From: Eledone cirrhosa
Taxonomy: Eukaryota
NCBI GenBank assembly: GCA_964016885.1
Contig: OZ024747.1
Span: forward strand, 56,792,001-56,856,000
DNA length: 64,000 nt
Direction: 5' to 3'
Shown: positions 600-39,220 of the stretch, piece after piece
Numbering within the stretch: position 1 is the first letter of the stretch
Layout of the letters: each line of letters begins with the position of its first letter
Program-made: the position numbers and the translations under genes
The notes under the pieces: model-generated
What the model was told of the DNA's origin: nothing
Databases searched by the model: none
The model's input: only the letters and a program-made list of their open reading frames with translations

Positions 600-942
600 G
601 GAGGCACATGGCTTAGTGGTTAGAGCATTGGCCTTGCAATCGAAAGGTTGTGAGTTCAATTCTCAGACTGGGTGATGTGTTGTTTCCTTGAGCAAGACAC
701 TTTATTTCACATTGCTCCAGTTTACTCAGCTGTAGAAATGAGATGATAGGGACTGTGGTCCCTATCATTCCACTGCAAAGTGGTCGTGGAGGTGCCACAG
801 CAAAAAAGCACCAGAGCACTCACTGTAAATGAGATTGGTGTTAGGAAGGGCATCCAGCTTTAGAAATCAAGCCACCATCAGTTCCCGTCCCACCCTTGCA
901 AGCAGGGAAAAAGCGGACGGAAAATGAAATGAAATGAATGAA

Positions 943-1060: not shown

Positions 1061-1095
1061 CCTTAACGTTTCGGACGCTAGTTCTTCATCAGAAG
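1061..1095 (-). ncRNA. Minimal type I hammerhead motif (Penelope-type), slightly degenerate
   Basis: Minus strand reads ctt CTGATGA a gaac tagc gtcc GAA ACGTT A agg. Degenerate relatives at ~11490-11520 (+) and ~40785-40817 (-), the latter with ggac in stem II. Confidence 0.6.
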
Positions 1096-1985: not shown

Positions 1986-2320
<335 letters not shown>

Positions 2321-25760: not shown

Positions 25761-26625
25761 ATTGTGTTTTTTTTTTAAAGTGTAATATTTGTTGGTCGAT
25801 GACTGTCACATAAGTAAGTACATCAAATTTTGCAACAGTTTATGTTTGAAGGTTCTTTATTGAATTTGCCATTTTAATTGTTGGTCAGTCACATGATTGG
25901 CCATATAAAATAGGTGCCAGAAAAGAATGGTTGTCATAGAAAGTTTTGTGCCAAACAAAAGATAATGGTCAAGGAATGGGAGGAGGATGAATAGTTCTGG
26001 TTCAGTGAGTATGGCTGATGTCATGCTGAGGTGTCAAAATTCAGACTTTCTATTGAAATAAATTGAATGTTTGTGTTGATAGTATAGTGGTGGTGGCAGG
26101 GTAGAAAAGAGAAATATATTTTTTTATTTGCATGTGGCTGTGTGTGTGATTTATATATATATTTAGCAGTATCGGTAGAAGGTCGGACGCCATGCTTTCC
26201 AGCATAGTTACGTCCCTTTACGATCTGAGTTCAAATCCCGCCGAGGTTGACTTTGCCTTTCATCCTTACGGGGTCGATAAAATAAAGTACCAGTAATGCA
26301 CTGGGTTTTTGCTGGCCTTGTGCCTAAATTAGAAACAATTATCAGGCTAAAATTCCTTTAGTCAAAAATACGGTGAAAGCTATTCTATTTTCTAATTTCA
26401 AACCTGCTCACTGTTTCAAAACATACTTACTTGATATATAGATATATAGATATAAATCAAAATGGATGCAGTCAGAGTACTCGATACTTGGGGTAGTAGA
26501 GTATCGTGAAATGTAAGAGTTAGGACCCTAATGGCTGAGCTCTTGAGGTTTCAACAGCTAATTCGGAACTAGATGTTGAAACGGCAAGAGCTCAGCTGGC
26601 GGGGTCTCGACTCTTTCATATATAA

Positions 26626-26701
<76 letters not shown>

Positions 26702-26782
26702 GTTATTCCGGGTTGAGTCAGAGGTAACCACAGTAAGTAAGGTACTCAATACATTGCAGAGTATAAAAGTTTTAATATAGAT

Positions 26783-26835
26783 GAGATTCTACAGGACTAG
26801 AACTGTTTCATTCTTTAGAAATCATCAGGAATCTC
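26783..26835 (-). ncRNA. Type I hammerhead ribozyme (intact core)
   Basis: gagattc CTGATGA t ttc taaa gaa t GAA ACAG ttctagtc CTGT A gaatctc: 7-bp stem I, 4-bp stem III, GUA cleavage triplet. The inverted twin at 26837-26889 has GAA changed to CAA. Confidence 0.8.
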
Positions 26836-27348
26836 TGAGATTCCTGATGATTTCTAAAGAATCAAACAGTTCTAGTCCTGTATAATCTTATCTATATATA
26901 TATATATATATATATTGTGTGTGTGTATGTATGTGTGTAAATATTCTATAAAAATATATATGAACAGAATATTTGCTCACAGACACATATCTGTATACAC
27001 ATACTTTTAGAGGGGCACATGTACAGGAGTGTAGATAAATGAATATATACAAATGCAGAAAACCACAAAATATTCATCAGAATTTCCAAGTATATTAGCT
27101 ATTTGCCAAAGTTAGGAAATACCATGTTTGCTCAAAGATATATGAGTTATATTAGTGGAGTAATTCTATCCAACTAACATTATAATGGCACCAAAGACTG
27201 ACCTAAAGTCTTGCTTTTAGTCAATGAACTTGATATATTCATGAGAGTTTGCTCATCATGCAGCTTTGGAAACTACTATTCCCGCTCACTGGAAATCACT
27301 GTAAATGATTTATGTATTCATATATGTATGTATTTATGTTTGTATGCA

Positions 27349-27392
<44 letters not shown>

Positions 27393-27466
27393 CATGTGTG
27401 TTTGTGTCTGTGTGAGCCTGTTTATGTATGTATGTGTGCGCACTCACACACATACATATTTATATT

Positions 27467-27510
<44 letters not shown>

Positions 27511-28189
27511 TTTATATACATATGCATATATGTAAATTTCTCTCTCACCCTCTCTTTACATTTATATTTATGTATATATGCAACTCTCTCTCTCTCTCTC
27601 TCTCTCTCAATTTGTCACAGTAAGTAAATGCCTTAATGAAGAGTTGTAGTAGATTAGTAATTTTTTAAGGTGGGATCAAAGCAGCCTTGATCTGATAACT
27701 CTGTAGATGAAGTTGATGTCTTCATGATAAAGCTTTGCATTTGTAGAATTGGCCAAATGGTTAGAATGTTGGTATTTGTTCCAGTTCTTTGTGCGCTGAG
27801 GTCAACTTTGTTCTTTTATACTTTCATGATTAATGAATGAAATCCCAGTCCAGATCACTGGATTGGTGGAATCTGATCCAGAGCTTTACATTCTGAAGTC
27901 AAATTTCACATCCTTCTACCAGAAGTTGTGACTAGCCAAATGCATCAACAATGAGAAGACCAATGAAGTTTCCTTGGTATGAGCCAGCAATCGTCCCAAT
28001 GCCTTTTTTGTAGGAGAATTAAAGTGCTGTGATCCTGTGTTTATATCAGGAAATTATTTCATTGTTTATTCAGATGATTGTCATTAGCGAATAGAGTTGC
28101 TTAGCTTTCTTTGAACATAAATTGCAAGGTCATTTATTTCTAATATATGAGCTAACCATGAACACTATTTAATATTTGAGCAAGGAGTT

Positions 28190-28540
28190 AGCATTCTATC
28201 TCGGGTTAGACTTTCTGGATAATACTGGATACTTCTATTTTTTTATACTACACTTTAAGACAGTTGAGGCCTTAACCTACACAGATTTTCTCTCTAACTA
28301 TCCCTAAAACATAATTAATAATCTTGATAAGAACATTTTCTTTTATTTTCTCAAACCTTTCTGTGAACTTATACATTTTTAGTGAAATTGAACCTTATTA
28401 CAATGAAGCACTTATTAGAAGTGATTTTATAGAGACACTGTACTATCTAAAACTGACCAGTTGAAAATAATACTCAGTAAAAATAGAAACATTAGCAAAA
28501 CAAGATATAGAATATGGTGTAATCACTCATTTAACTTAAC
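28190..28540 (+). pseudogene. Decayed Penelope-like RT C-terminal fragment
   Basis: Translates IFSEIEPYYNEALIRSDFIETLYY and RYRIWCNHSF, resembling PLE motifs PxYxxALxxSGY and RKIIWFNPPF (recalled, not aligned). Confidence 0.5.
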
Positions 28541-29418
28541 TCTTTTAAACTCTCTTGTTACCATATGTCAAATCTGGGTTTCAAATAATTTTGAGAATAA
28601 TAAAGAATTTGGAAAACTTTATTATTAAACTGATGGTTGAATATAAATACTTTAAAACATTGTATCATAGAATCAGGGACAATTTCAGGTGTTTTGTAAC
28701 AAGATTCAACACAAGAGCCATTAAGTTACTCTTAGTTTTCTTAGTGACAACAAGATTACAATATATGGAACCTTGACAAAGGCTTTCTCCAGATCTCCAA
28801 ATGCTAGTTAATATGGCTTCATCTAAGTGAAATACCTCTCCTGCAATTGTCACACAAAGAAATGTACTTCTGGAGAAGCCAACCTGCATCTCATTCTTTT
28901 CCTAATCAGGTGTGCTATACAATTTTTTCATTAACTTTTATAACTTAGTCCAATACCATGATATTTATGTACTTATTTCTCTCAGGTGCATCTACTTTGC
29001 ACTTCTATATTGCTATTGCTACGCCAGTCCTTGAGTATGACACCTCTCAAAACTAGCATATGACCTAGCATTTGACGATGATACTGCAATGACATATATA
29101 CATATAATTCTGTTTGTGAGTGTGTGACTTAGAGGAAATAGATAAATATAAAGTAAATGAAATTGAAAAGTATTATAACTGATGGAGAGACATAGCAGTA
29201 GAGAGAAAGAGAGAGAGAGAGACAAAGAGAGAGGGGGAGAGGGAGAGAGAGAGTAATGAAGAGTATAGACATAGAAAGTTTGGGGAACAGAAATGCAAAA
29301 GAGCAAAAGAAAAAAATGAAAAGGAAGTGAGTTAAAGGGAAAGAAATAAGGACTGAATGAAAAAAAGGAGAGGAGAAAGAAGACCACAAGTGGTAACAAC
29401 ACACACACACACTGTTGC

Positions 29419-29452
<34 letters not shown>

Positions 29453-29522
29453 ATGTATTATATATATATGTTTATAATAACATATATATGTGTGTAATGC
29501 AAGCATGGAAAGGCAGCTGTTA

Positions 29523-29611
<89 letters not shown>

Positions 29612-29614
<3 letters not shown>

Positions 29615-29830
29615 TGATTACACAACAGTTAGTTCACCATACCGAGAACAATTGTTTCACCTTAGCGGATCCTCAGCTCGTAATAAAGGATTACAAGCTG
29701 AGGATCCGCTAAGGTGAAACAATTGTTCTTGGTATGGTGAACTAACTGTTGTGTAACCACTTCTACCTAACTCGTCCAATGGATGGACTGAGTGCTCTAC
29801 CACTACGGATATTACCTTCCAGTGTTCTAC

Positions 29831-29835
<5 letters not shown>
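29612..29835. mobile_element. Fold-back element in (TA)n with two inverted intact HHR cores
   Basis: Minus 29643-29680 reads cgag CTGAGGA t cc gctaa gg t GAA ACAATTGT T ctcg. Plus 29694-29731 has a caag/cttg stem I. The same family occurs singly at 38711-38860. Confidence 0.8.
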
Positions 29836-29869
<34 letters not shown>

Positions 29870-29961
29870 GGAAAAATTTGAACAGGGACAAAACAGAGAG
29901 GCAGTACAATAAATGTTTATTAATTTCACGCTCAGGAGAGTGGGGGGGGGGTAGGTGGGGG

Positions 29962-29994
29962 ACGACGTTTTCGGGCATAAGCCCTTCCTCAGGT
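29962..29994 (-). ncRNA. Minimal hammerhead motif
   Basis: ac CTGAGGA a gggc ttat gccc GAA AACGT C gt. Stem I is only 2 bp. Confidence 0.5.
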
Positions 29995-30119
29995 GAGAAG
30001 TGTGTGGGAACAGAGTTCAAAAGGTGTGTAGGGGAGTGGTGGAGAAACATATAGCGAAAGGAAACGGTGCGAATGAAAAATTAACAAATAAAGATAAAAA
30101 ATAAAAATATATATAGAAG

Positions 30120-30170
30120 AGCTTCTACAGGACTAGAACTGTTTCATTCGTGAGAAATCATCAGGAAGCT
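30120..30170 (-). ncRNA. Type I hammerhead ribozyme (intact core)
   Basis: agcttc CTGATGA t ttc tcac gaa t GAA ACAG ttctagtc CTGT A gaagct. Stem I sequence differs from the 26783 copy but is fully paired. Confidence 0.8.
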
Positions 30171-30699
30171 GGCTGTCCAAGTAACTAGTAGTATTTATGT
30201 ATTTCCTTATCTGGTGGTAGGAGAGGGTGGGGATTGGGATGGGTGTAGGTCATTGGTTGAAGGATTCAAAGAATGGGGATTCATTAAAAGCTAATTCTTT
30301 AAAGCTATAATATTAACAACAGCAGAAAGAATACTGTAAACAAATTCAAAATTTGATTACCAATCCTTGTTTATCACTTAGACTAACAATGGCTGTAAGA
30401 CAGGTGTCTACAGGATGGGCGGGGTTCAATGGTTTAAAGAAAAGGGAAATGTTTTAGAAGCTAATTCTTTAAGGCTAAAATGAGGGTGACAAAGGCAGAA
30501 AAGGTTCCATCAACAGATTCAAGTGTTGGGTGAATCCCCTATAGTGAAGTTTCTCTAATTATATATTATATATATTCCAGGTGTCCACAAACACATTCAC
30601 ACACGCGCCCACTTACACACGTACACACACTTACATGCACGCACACACAGGCAGGCACACACACAACAAACATGCATAATGGTACATACACACATACAT

Positions 30700-32870: not shown

Positions 32871-32955
32871 CCACATATATATCATCATCATCATCATCAT
32901 CATCATCATCGTTTAACGTCCATGTTCCACGCTTGCATGAATTTGGACGGTATAT

Positions 32956-33393
32956 ATGTATATATTAGCAATACTTATTAGCAATACATACCCTTTTCAA
33001 AGACCTCCCTATATAGATAAGAAATGTATAATATGTAAACTAAGCCCCCATATTAACTGTAAAACTAGAAATGTAGTATATAGCATAAGATGTACTGAAG
33101 GACAATGTAGAGATAAGAATATAGTGTACATAGGTGAGACAGCTCGTAGTATAGGGGAACGGATAAATGAACACTGGCGAGAGCTTCAGGATAGTAAAGA
33201 ATCATCTGTACTCTACCAACATGCTAAAATAGAACATAAGGGTAAATTAAAGAACATAGAAATAAAAATAGAATCTACACACAGAAAAGACACAATGTTT
33301 AGACAAATCACAGAGGCAATAAACATAAATGAACTCCAACCAAAATTAAATAGAAAGCATGAATGGAACAGCAACATCACAACTTACAATTAA
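32956..33393 (+). CDS. Penelope-like element GIY-YIG endonuclease domain (5'-truncated element)
   Basis: CxxC...CKTRNVVYSIRC...VYIGETARSIGERINEH...H...RQITEAININELQPKLN: the PLE GIY-YIG with Cys/His linker. The first residues come from flanking microsatellite. Confidence 0.85.
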   Translation: MYILAILISNTYPFQRPPYIDKKCIICKLSPHINCKTRNVVYSIRCTEGQCRDKNIVYIGETARSIGERINEHWRELQDSKESSVLYQHAKIEHKGKLKNIEIKIESTHRKDTMFRQITEAININELQPKLNRKHEWNSNITTYN

Positions 33394-33595
33394 GGACAAA
33401 ATGAAAACACACACACACACATAGAACAAACAACCAACCAGTAACATGTAAATAAACAAATAAATAAACAAATATAAACACACGCAAACACCCGGATGTA
33501 ACACATGCGCAAACTAAGCACACAACACACACAAAAACAAGATGGCGTAGGACAGAACAAAGGAGAGGCACAAAAAACAAAGAAAAGAATCCCCA

Positions 33596-33638
33596 GTTAC
33601 TGAAGAGGTCACAGAATGTGTGACGAAAGAACTTTGAC
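33596..33638 (+). ncRNA. Hammerhead motif in the Penelope 3' pLTR
   Basis: gtta CTGAAGA g gtcaca gaatg tgtgac GAA AGAACT T tgac, ~200 bp downstream of the GIY-YIG stop on the same strand. Confidence 0.7.
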
Positions 33639-33827
33639 AATATATGAACAATCGTCTGGTTGTGGAACCAACCAACCAACCGGAAATTTATAAATTCCTA
33701 AATTTATAAATTTAATTTATAATACATTGAAGTGAAAGCAGCTGCTGCATGTGTTTCTTATTGGCAACATGACCCTCCCAAAGTATAACAATATATATAT
33801 ATATGTATATATATGTATATATATATA

Positions 33828-34584: not shown

Positions 34585-37500
34585 CTAAGGCGGGTAAAAT
34601 TCCCGAGATCCATGGACGAGTTCTCTCCAGCGGTCTCTGTCCCTCATTATCGCTGCCATATCCTGCATCTCCAACAGACCAGTGTCTGTCCTTAGGGCAT
34701 CAACATATGTTAACCTTGGTCTTCCTCTTCTAGTGTGTCCATGTAGGGGCTCCCAAAGGAGCACTGAGTGCAATGTCAACTCTGGATGTCGGTGAGCATG
34801 TCCAGCCAACCTCAGTCTCCTCTGTGTCACATTTGAGCTGACTTTTGGGATGCTCCCATACAGCTCTGAGTTTTTCATCCTCAGTGTATACTGATTAATG
34901 TTCAGAGCCATCCTCAGCATTCTCGTGTAGCACCCATCCACCATCTGAGTGAGTCTCTTGGTCAGTGTCCAAGTCTCAGACCCATACAGCAGCACAGACT
35001 CCACTACAGCAATGAAGAGGCGGATTTTCAGGTCTCTACGAAGGTCCGACTTCCACACCGATCTCAAGCTGTGACACGCCGCCCAGGCCTTGCTCTTCCT
35101 CTCAACCACATCATCCTCCGTATTCCCAATCTTTGCTCCCAAATACAGGAAGTCCTCAACCAATTCCAGCGGCTTCCCGCCTACATTAGTGATCCCCTCT
35201 GGCTTCTCAACATTCTCTACCAGATATTTTGTTTTAGTCTCATTCATTCTCAGCCCCACACTCATCGACACAGTCTCAACCTCCCGCATCAAATCCTCTG
35301 CCTCCTTCACTGTATTTGTCACCAAAACTATGTCGTCGGCAAATTCAGCATCCGATACCTTTTTTGCCCCAACTCTCCTGCTCTGAGCCGGTGCTACAGT
35401 AAAGCCAGTGTCCTGGTGTTTCTCCAGTGCAAGGCGCATACAATAGTCCACTACGATGATAAAAAGGTAGGGAGCCAATGTATCTCCCTGGAGCACTCCA
35501 GCCAGTATCTCAAAGAACTCTGTCATCCCATCAGGTGTAATGACTTGGGCTTTGGTGTTGGTGTAGAGCAGTGATATCAGGTCCACTATCCTCTTGGGGA
35601 TTCCATAAGCCTGTAAGATCTTCATCAGGCAGTAACGGTCCACAGAATCAAAGGCCTTCCTAAAGTCAATGAAAACCATGACCGCAGGAAGGCACTTTGC
35701 TCTAGCTCCCTCTAATATCCTCCTCAGCATCAGGATGTGACTGGTGGTTGATCTACCCTCTCTGAAGCCGTTCTGGTTGTCCCTGAGCTTCTTCTCCATC
35801 TCAGGCTGGATCCTGTTAAGAATCATCCTGTTGAGGGTCTTTGCCACAAGTGATGTCAGTGAGATCCCCCGGTAGTTGTTGGTGTTAGAGAGATTTCCCT
35901 TCTTTGGCACTGGGACGATGTTACTGATCCTCCACTGATTCGGGGCAACTCCTTTCTCCAGTGCCCCGTTACAGAACCCCAAGATGATATCATCAAAATC
36001 ACACCTCCTCATCACCTCTGATGCCACTCCATCTTCTCCATGAGCCTTGCCCTCCTTGATCTTCTTCTTGGCTCTCTGAAGCTCCTCTCTGGTGAAGGGC
36101 TCTGTCTCAACATCCAGTTCCTCAAACAGCCGCCTGATCTCCCCAGTGCTCTGGGCTGTGGAGGGTGGCTCTCCTAGTAGGGTCCTAAAATGGTCTAGCC
36201 ATTTCTTCTTCCTATCCTCGGGCCCCGTTCCCTGGATCTGACTCGAACACCTTTTCTTCCTCCCTGTGATCTCGTTGATGATCATCCAGCTCTCCTTACA
36301 TCCAGATCTGTCAACCGCTCTCTCCACACTTCTGATCTTCTCTATCAGTGCCTCCTCTCTGACCTCAGTGTAAGCGGTACAGAGCTCTTCCCTCATCACC
36401 TCCACAGTCTCCATCCTCTCCTCCGTAGGATCAGCATAGAATTGGTCCCTGGCAGCTTTCAGGTGTTCTCTAGCTGCACACACTTTTGGGTTTGCAGAGC
36501 TGACGTGCTTCCCTTTGTTCTTTTTCCTCGGCACCAGGGTTTCACTTGCTTTCGCCACTGCATTGGTGAAGTGCCCATACCTCCTCGTCACACTCTCCTC
36601 AGTCCATCCAATCTCTCTCTCCTCTGACTCTCCACACAGAGCACTAAACCTGTTTCTCACTTCCACTGTGAACCTCTCCTGTAGCTTATCATCTTCCTTG
36701 AAAGCTCCCCAGTCATAGATTGTTCTCCGGGGCTGAGCCTTGCTCTTTCTTAAGCTCACGCGGACCTCACTCATAACAAGCCGGTGGTCACTACCCAGTG
36801 TACTGAAATAGCTGTATGGTTCCGTGTTCAGAACACTATTCCGCCACTTTTTCCTCACCAGAATGAAATCAATCTGGGACTTGGACAGGTGCATATCTGA
36901 GATGTAGGTCCACATCTTCCCCAGATTCTTCCTAAACCTTAGGTTGGTCGCCATCAAGTTCGCCTCCAGGAGGGTGTCTCTCAGTAGTCTTCCATTTCGG
37001 TTGGTGTTGTTATGGAAGTACCAGCAAGGATCTTCACTGCCCTCCTTACTCAGATGTGCATTGAAGTCCCCCAAAACAAGCAGGATATTGTGTGCCTGAG
37101 TGGTGTTGACAGCTCTACACACCTCCTCATGGAACTCCTCGGCATTCACATCACTGTCCCCCTCGGTTGGACTATAGGCTGAGATGACTGTCGGTCTTGG
37201 GTTTCCATTGAAGGTCACCCTCAACACTCGCGGGGAGATAGGCATTATTTCCCTCACCAACAGATTGGTTTTTGCACTGAACACAAAACCCACTCCTCCT
37301 ACTGCAGCATTTGTTGTGTTCTTCACTGCCGATGTAGTGATGAGCTAGCTCTTCCTCCCGATCATCACACTCCTCACGGGCTCATCGTGTAGAATCCTGT
37401 GTTTTTGGATCGCAAGTATCTGTATACCACTCTCCTCGAACAGATGTCCCAACTCCTCTCTCTTCTCCAGCGTTCGAATAGTCCTCACATTCAAAGTGCC

Positions 37501-37719
37501 CATTTTGATGGCTCTTCTGCAGGACAAAACTGCATTCTTTATATTTGTCTCAGAGACAGCTGATCCATCATCCACTGGCCCTCTCTGTGGCTCTAAGCCA
37601 GCAGAGTCATAACGACCAGGCTGCTCATTGACAGTGTAATTAGGGGCTCTAACCCTAGTGCTGTTAGATCGACTCTCCATATTTCTTTTCAATGGCTGAC
37701 AATACCTTACCGGCGCCAC
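34585..37719 (-). pseudogene. Near-intact RTE-clade (RTE-X-like) LINE ORF: AP endonuclease plus reverse transcriptase
   Basis: The 124-aa and 913-aa ORFs are in frame, separated by one TAG at 37345-37347. Motifs GTLNVRT, LGDFNAH, SDHRLV, NYRGISL, QNGFR, FIDFRKAFDSV, GVLQGDTLAPYLF, FADD, FLYLG. (TAGA)n tail at ~34570-34587. The 5'UTR extends to ~37890. Confidence 0.95.
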
Positions 37720-38710: not shown

Positions 38711-38717
38711 ACCATGT

Positions 38718-38767
38718 CCATTACGAGCTGAGGATCCACTAAGGTGAAACAATTGTTCTCGTTATGG
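38718..38767 (+). ncRNA. Type I hammerhead ribozyme (intact core)
   Basis: ccattacgag CTGAGGA t cc actaa gg t GAA ACAATTGT T ctcgttatgg. Stem I pairs at 9 of 10 positions. Confidence 0.8.
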
Positions 38768-39220
38768 TGAACTAACCGTTGTGTAACCACTTCTACCTAA
38801 CTCGTCCCATGGACTGAGTGCTCTACTACTTCGGATATTACCTTCCAGTATTCTACCACTATATAAATATATATATATATATATATTTTACAGTCAGTAG
38901 GCATCTCTAACAAAATACACCCCATCCACACCACCCCTTTCAATGTAAAGTTATGTTGGTACCACAACATCCAGTCCTAAATAAATGAGGTCATGTAGGT
39001 GTCACGACAAAAAAACACACAGTCCACGCTGTAATGTGGCCGTGTAGGCAACACGGTAAAAACCTCCCAGCCCCACACTGTAAATGTGGTTGGTGTTAGG
39101 AAGGGCATCCAGCTGTAGAGAACCCGCCAGACAGTCCTATGCGAGCAAGACAACCACTCTTGCCTCAAGTGGGAAAACTCCCGTCCAAACCCATGCAAGT
39201 GTGGAACACGGACGTTAAAC

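What the first reader, a model, noticed from the sequence alone, without database searches (positions are those of the whole stretch)
26783..30170. Stem I covariation between HHR family members points to selection on RNA structure
The copies at 26783 and 30120 share an identical core and stem III (GAA ACAG ttctagtc CTGT A). Their stem I sequences differ but are each fully paired (gagattc/gaatctc versus agcttc/gaagct), and their loop II sequences differ (taaa versus tcac). This is the best internal evidence that the motifs are functional ribozymes rather than chance matches.
Basis: seen in the sequence. Interest (0 to 1): 0.75.

Follow-up and report, generated by a model that had tools for sequence, protein, structure and literature searches.

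The report
Hammerhead ribozyme of Hydra-clade Penelope retrotransposon
These two motifs are leftover ends of a very abundant Penelope-type jumping gene whose RNA carries a predicted self-cutting hammerhead; paired changes in its stem show that the active parent elements were likely selected to keep the fold, but this is a known kind of element and these particular copies are probably inactive.

Summary
The two minus-strand motifs differ in stem I by one base pair (A-U versus C-G); the seventh pair at 26783 comes from an inversion junction. From two copies alone this has about a 5-6% chance. The motif sits in the terminal repeat of a Hydra-clade Penelope-like element: a full copy carries a 713-aa RT/GIY-YIG frame, and a 22-mer of the core has 32,152 exact hits. 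Across five subfamilies (159 copies) stem I took seven substitutions: three double changes and one wobble, none breaking a majority pair (null P 0.003-0.009). The catalytic core never changed and loop II changed at all four positions. Selection therefore likely acted on the source elements. Inserted copies decay: catalytic positions mutate like their neighbours, and the 26783 copy is predicted to be locked in a long hairpin with its inverted twin. Cleavage is untested. Hammerheads in these elements, including such covariation, are published. The scan noted similar two-ended insertions in other repeat families of this genome. Less expected: most copies' 5' ends fall in the stem I 5' arm.

The parts
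26784..26834 (-). Type I hammerhead motif, subfamily A (stem I AGAUUC/GAAUCU, loop II UAAA); predicted cut after GUA, between 26790 and 26789
26699..26783 (-). Long 3' tail of the terminal repeat (91 nt past the cut site in total) ending in (TA)n; holds a box unchanged across five subfamilies
26707..26722 (-). Small tail hairpin next to the insertion end; one pair covaries between subfamilies (U-A versus C-G)
26838..26888 (+). Inverted twin of the hammerhead with a short tail; G12 changed to C and pair 1 broken; forms a long hairpin with the minus-strand copy
   Evidence: -83 kcal/mol, z -16.3
30120..30170 (-). Type I hammerhead motif, subfamily B (stem I AGCUUC/GAAGCU, loop II UCAC), with a short tail into (TA)n
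30171..30570 (-). Native 3' untranslated part of the element upstream of the hammerhead, followed by about 1 kb of microsatellite; 5'-truncated, no ORF
2125..2310 (.). Third, older head-to-head insertion of the same family (cores 2214-2252 minus, 2260-2298 plus) with decayed stem I

Best explanation
The motifs are hammerhead ribozyme sequences in the terminal repeat of a Hydra-clade Penelope-like retrotransposon, and stem I was likely kept paired by selection on the transposing source elements, not on the inserted copies. Shown: element anatomy, subfamilies, compensatory changes between subfamilies, decay within them. Inferred: the element RNA folds stems I-III and cleaves slowly after GUA, probably with help from the element's protein or as a dimer through the palindromic CUAG in loop III. 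Inferred: the RT/GIY-YIG protein nicks (TA)n, starts copying inside the RNA at two sites past the ribozyme (about +15 to +23 and +91) on uncut RNA, and often stops at the stem I 5' arm, which leaves tens of thousands of short, often head-to-head copies such as the one at 26699-26890.
For: Full element L145: hammerhead, 713-aa frame, microsatellite-rich 3' region, hammerhead; many near-identical open frames. Hydra motifs conserved in 60 aligned proteins (against section 11 of PMC8557442). Published Hydra hammerheads share the U.U after the core and the ACAG/CUGU-A stem III (File S2 rows). Tree built without stem I puts the A-U pair on one branch (99/98). Majority stems of five subfamilies: 7 steps, all keeping pairs; null P 0.003-0.009 for no broken pair, 0.0005-0.002 with two or more double-changed pairs. 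Core 0 steps in 12 sites, loop II 7 steps in 4, flanks 0.33-0.71 steps per site. Pair count on 46 sequences: 97.1% paired, covariation 0.130 against 0.002-0.074 for slid controls. Copy decay: 10 of 335 catalytic versus 22 of 938 other positions changed, p 0.54; 27 of 89 tail-anchored copies fully intact. 31 of 34 head-to-head pairs have one long and one short tail.
Against: No cleavage or expression data. Only three double events, two of them transitions next to a CpG. Subfamily D is mixed at pair 6 (G-C 17, A.C 6, A-U 3, U.C 3 of 31). A sixth type with an extra base in the 5' arm was seen only in junction copies and left out of the test. Stems II and III never covary, and a 28-nt tail box is as invariant as the core, so invariance alone does not prove catalysis. 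The active stem II is weak (pair probability 0.01-0.07) and an inactive pairing of UUC with G12-A14 is 1-1.4 kcal/mol more stable. The number of pairs with double change did not exceed the shuffle control (437 of 500). In one BLAST-selected sample the core was slightly better kept than stems (p 0.025). In Anolis Poseidon, ribozyme mutants did not impair insertion in vitro (passages of PMC11167929).
Confidence: 0.82

Rival explanations
1. Stem I is selected as a structure but not for cleavage: it serves as a protein-binding or reverse-transcription signal at the RNA 5' end, and the ribozyme is vestigial or very slow.
For: Weak stem II with U.U and a more stable inactive pairing; inserted copies span the cut site, so uncut RNA is the template; 54 of 94 copies end at the stem I 5' arm; a tail hairpin covaries too; ribozyme mutants still insert in the Poseidon assay.
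Against: All 12 catalytic positions are fixed while N7, the one free core position, varies; the same core with different stems recurs in published Hydra elements.
Confidence: 0.1
2. The paired changes arose without selection, by template switching that copied one arm of stem I from the other during reverse transcription or replication.
For: Fold-back at stem I does occur: in L093, L096, L238 and L259 the 5' arm is continued by the reverse complement of the tail; 65 of 266 copies are head-to-head. The A-type change is a double transversion on a short branch (0.058).
Against: The test used copies with native upstream sequence; pair 7 stays unpaired in all five subfamilies and the U.G wobble persists; switching cannot explain the fixed core or the free loop II.
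Confidence: 0.05
3. The host has co-opted these copies as working ribozymes, and selection acts on them in place.
For: Both cited copies have an intact core and stem I.
Against: Copy-level catalytic changes occur at background rate; copy-level stem I changes are mostly uncompensated (36 broken, 12 one-sided, 3 double); the 26783 copy is predicted to be trapped in a long hairpin; intactness fits young age.
Confidence: 0.03

Closest known systems
Hydra clade of Penelope-like elements and their hammerheads (Craig et al. 2021, PMC8557442; passages, section 11 and File S1/S2 rows read)
   Same: C-terminal GIY-YIG, RW[K/R], DKT, CxCX5C, CxxC and CxH, no CCHH; (TA)n targets; inverted 5'-truncated copy and one-sided tail; core CUGAUGAU...UGAA; stem III ACAG/CUGU then A as in Penelope-1_NV and Penelope-1_SK.
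   Different: About 6 kb long owing to a microsatellite-filled 3' region (described Hydras are mostly under 3 kb); loop III of 8 nt with a CUAG palindrome (1-3 nt in the listed rows); 3-bp A-U-rich stem II; extra tail about 70 nt rather than 30-40; tens of thousands of copies. The four Octopus mentions in that supplement, of which two were shown, were Naiad rows.
Minimal hammerheads of metazoan Penelope-like elements (Cervera and de la Pena 2014, PMC4209133; parts 1-2 of 4 read)
   Same: [quoted passage not shown]
   Different: Has a real 4-bp stem III and a 6-bp stem I; lacks the G10.1-C11.1 pair that paper calls highly conserved.
Poseidon element of Anolis (Frangieh et al. 2024, PMC11167929; passages read)
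   Same: Internal start of reverse transcription at two sites in a stem-loop past the ribozyme, A/T-rich targets, uncut RNA as template.
   Different: Other clade; there the ribozyme overlaps the start codon and cleavage was measured (protein-assisted); here it lies about 140 nt before the start codon, the two inferred start sites are about 70 nt apart, and nothing is measured.

Membership tests
Type I hammerhead ribozyme | Core CUGANGA, GAAA and UH in order, with stem I closing the ends | tested here: met
   all 12 positions fixed in five subfamilies
Type I hammerhead ribozyme | Three helices supported by pairing and covariation | tested here: inconclusive
   Stem I covaries at two pairs; stems II and III pair but do not vary
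Type I hammerhead ribozyme | G10.1-C11.1 pair opening stem II | tested here: not met
   U.U in all subfamilies; the same U.U is listed for many published Hydra hammerheads
Type I hammerhead ribozyme | Match to an Rfam hammerhead model | tested here: not met
   None at gathering score in the window or among 77 matches to E 10 in 26600-30300
Type I hammerhead ribozyme | Self-cleavage after NUH | not testable with these tools
   needs an assay
Penelope-like element | Single frame with RT and C-terminal GIY-YIG between terminal repeats | tested here: met
   L145; RT motif residues D253, G316, YRDD fixed in 60 of 60; Pfam gave only a weak GIY-YIG hit (E 0.012) and no RT hit
Penelope-like element | 5' truncation, inverted partial copy, tail at one end only | tested here: met
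   31 of 34 head-to-head pairs long plus short tail
Hydra clade | RWK motif, DKG changed to DKT, CxCX5C linker, CxxC and CxH around E and N | tested here: met
   RWR38-40, DKT116-118, C566/C568/C574, C666/C669, C694/H696 (definitions)
Hydra clade | CCHH motif absent from the endonuclease | tested here: met
   Only H617 conserved; C589, C598 and Y635 columns are not
Hydra clade | Insertion into (TA)n | tested here: met
   Tails run into (TA)n in the copies printed; not counted formally
Hydra clade | Placement in an RT tree with reference Hydra families | not tested
   No reference proteins were fetched; assignment rests on motifs
Non-LTR retrozyme | Non-coding tandem monomers with one hammerhead each | tested here: not met
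   Family has its own coding elements; short copies seen are solo or head-to-head, not tandem arrays

The most novel reading that the evidence does not exclude
The element's RNA begins at the 5' arm of stem I, so the hammerhead is the first fold of the transcript. Reverse transcription started at two internal sites runs off this 5' end, and two such cDNAs are joined head to head. This one mechanism would explain the tens of thousands of 60-140 nt ribozyme-only copies and palindromes, and would make the ribozyme a switch that removes a leader of about 45 nt.
Probability: 0.3. Interest if true: 0.55.

Novelty: new member of a known kind. Interest (0 to 1): 0.27.

Why it matters
The role of hammerheads in Penelope-like elements is still open. 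This family offers a young Hydra-clade element with intact frames, natural stem I swap variants (A versus B) ready for disrupt-and-rescue tests, and sharply defined insertion ends. The covariation itself is expected and already described for this class.

Tried and rejected
Rfam scans found no hammerhead; microRNA hits there are hairpin and microsatellite artefacts. Single-strand folding gives no signal over shuffles. RNA runs: no RNA holder listed, which is no evidence on expression. Contigs of three runs of unknown kind were laid; they cannot show RNA ends, and summed depth is no copy number. A DNA search meant to find native flanks of the sixth type was mis-aimed and returned only itself, so that type stayed out of the covariation test. 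PDB sequence search found nothing below E 0.07. A structure prediction of the protein had not finished after six collection attempts; no fold search was made. Lunse et al. 2017 was not held and is known only through passages of PMC6765202. Naiad identity was considered from the (TA)n targets and rejected: the nuclease is C-terminal. A distal extension of stem I and a splice acceptor at the 5' arm were considered by eye; neither is kept across all five subfamilies (AG is absent at that place in C and D). The excess of catalytic changes (5.2%) is inflated by 5' junctions cutting into CUGA and was replaced by the 3'-half test. Literature searches and a term search of PMC13282606 did not show this family, but Repbase and Dfam were not searchable and only part of one supplement was seen, so it may already be catalogued.

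Full report
Observation. Both motifs lie on the minus strand (26784-26834, 30120-30170). Their 39-nt cores are identical except for loop II, and stem I pairs in both. The stems differ by one base pair: pair 4 is A-U at 26783 and C-G at 30120. The window holds five copies of the family. A 22-mer of the core occurs 32,152 times in the 3.0-Gb genome, the reversed control 0 times; 26-mers with the two 3' arms occur 17,490 and 2,774 times. The host is an animal, probably a cephalopod; this is an impression from the repeat content and was not tested.

What it belongs to. Following copies upstream led to a full element, L145: hammerhead, a 713-aa frame starting about 140 nt after the cut site, a long microsatellite-rich 3' region, and a second hammerhead. 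Many copies keep the frame open at 98-100% identity. In an alignment of 60 proteins, the query and 59 of the 120 listed homologues, the RT residues and every motif that Craig et al. use to define the Hydra clade are conserved (section 11 of PMC8557442). Their File S2 lists Hydra hammerheads with the same U.U after the core and, in Nematostella and Saccoglossus families, the same stem III. Pfam gave only a weak GIY-YIG hit, and no tree with reference proteins was built.

Is the covariation real? From 266 distinct core matches I kept the 160 with native upstream sequence and no inverted twin, and dropped one with a duplication. These came from searches seeded on each type, so subfamily sizes are not genome proportions. 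A tree from upstream sequence and core, without stem I, separates five subfamilies, though many forks are unresolved; the A-U pair arose once (99/98). Some copies were assigned by hand from that tree. Majority stems: A AGAUUC/GAAUCU, B and E AGCUUC/GAAGCU, D GGCUUC/GAAGCC, C GGCUUU/GAAGCC. That is seven steps: one double change at pair 4, two at pair 6 and one wobble at pair 1. Throwing seven substitutions at random on the same tree leaves all stems paired in 0.3-0.9% of runs; with at least two double-changed pairs as well, 0.05-0.2%. For the two cited copies alone the figure is 5-6%. The null assumes the root state and the tree. On 46 of these sequences the structure is 97.1% paired, with covariation 0.130 against at most 0.074 for slid partners; the count of double-changed pairs (2) is not above shuffles. 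RNAalifold recovers stems I and III but prefers UUC paired to G12-A14 over the active stem II.

Other signs of selection. Across subfamilies the 12 catalytic positions show 0 steps, N7 one, loop II seven in four sites, and flanks 0.33-0.71 per site. A hairpin at the end of the tail also has a double change. Against: D is mixed at pair 6; a sixth type with an extra base in the 5' arm could not be placed, and the C wobble may be an indel relative to it; stems II and III and a tail box are simply invariant.

Where selection acts. Among 89 copies found through a tail 30-mer outside the ribozyme (90 of the first 100 hits were fetched), 67 keep the 3' half; there catalytic positions changed at 10 of 335 and others at 22 of 938 (p 0.54). 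27 of 89 are fully intact, 17 of them outside palindromes. Copy-level stem I changes are mostly uncompensated: 36 broken, 12 one-sided, 3 double (two near-duplicates dropped). A BLAST-selected sample showed slightly fewer core changes than stem changes (p 0.025 overall, 0.46 for G/C sites). The simplest reading is selection on source elements and drift in copies.

Mechanism. Shown: A-type tails end mostly at +15 to +23 or +87 to +94, mode +91; 31 of 34 head-to-head pairs join one long and one short tail; of 94 copies anchored on stem III, 54 begin within 8 nt upstream of C3, 19 inside the core and 21 further up (ungapped measure); 28 of 43 truncated A-type copies begin 4-7 nt upstream. Inferred, by analogy with the Anolis Poseidon assay (passages of PMC11167929): the protein nicks (TA)n and starts reverse transcription inside uncut RNA at two sites; the cDNAs often end at the stem I 5' arm, possibly because the transcript starts there. 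The ribozyme is predicted to be slow: its active fold is 1-1.4 kcal/mol above an inactive one, and the loop III region gains stability as a dimer (-14.8 against -2.4 kcal/mol per monomer). Low activity and dimer dependence are reported for this class (PMC4209133; review passages). Two earlier scan notes describe similar two-ended insertions in other families of this genome.

Verdict. A real feature and a fair inference at family level, but a new member of a known kind: Cervera and de la Pena already describe such families as full of compensatory changes. Interest 0.27.

Noticed in passing
window 29613-29760 and 38715-38790: A second hammerhead-like family (core CUGAGGA, palindromic loop III CAAUUG), as a head-to-head pair at 29655-/29698+ and solo at 38728+.
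   Followed up: partly
window 32941-33790 (+): 3' end of another Penelope-like element: GIY-YIG-like frame of 150 aa followed by a hammerhead at 33600-33628 and a tail into (TA)n; a relative in L029 has a fully paired stem I.
   Followed up: partly
window 29969-29992 (-) and 1069-1092 (-): Two further minimal hammerhead motifs of other families, both beside (TA)n; the copy at 30120 sits just upstream of the first.
   Followed up: no
window 26720-26750 (-), all subfamilies: A tail box of about 28 nt is unchanged across subfamilies whose proteins are only 70% alike; a candidate protein-binding or promoter element.
   Followed up: partly
L143 (G000:C1:2875300-2882500): Whole insertion as a 6.5-kb inverted structure: two microsatellite-rich 3' regions pointing outward around a 5'-truncated frame.
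   Followed up: partly
window 34600-37700 (-): G+C-richer stretch that reads by eye as an endonuclease/RT LINE-type element; not translated or searched.
   Followed up: no
window 607-670: tRNA-like match at the Rfam threshold; similar text recurs in other loci, so probably a SINE head.
   Followed up: no
L165:1150-1456, run X5: Contigs from a second coded organism hold the hammerhead and tail with 1-2 differences but not the ORF start.
   Followed up: no
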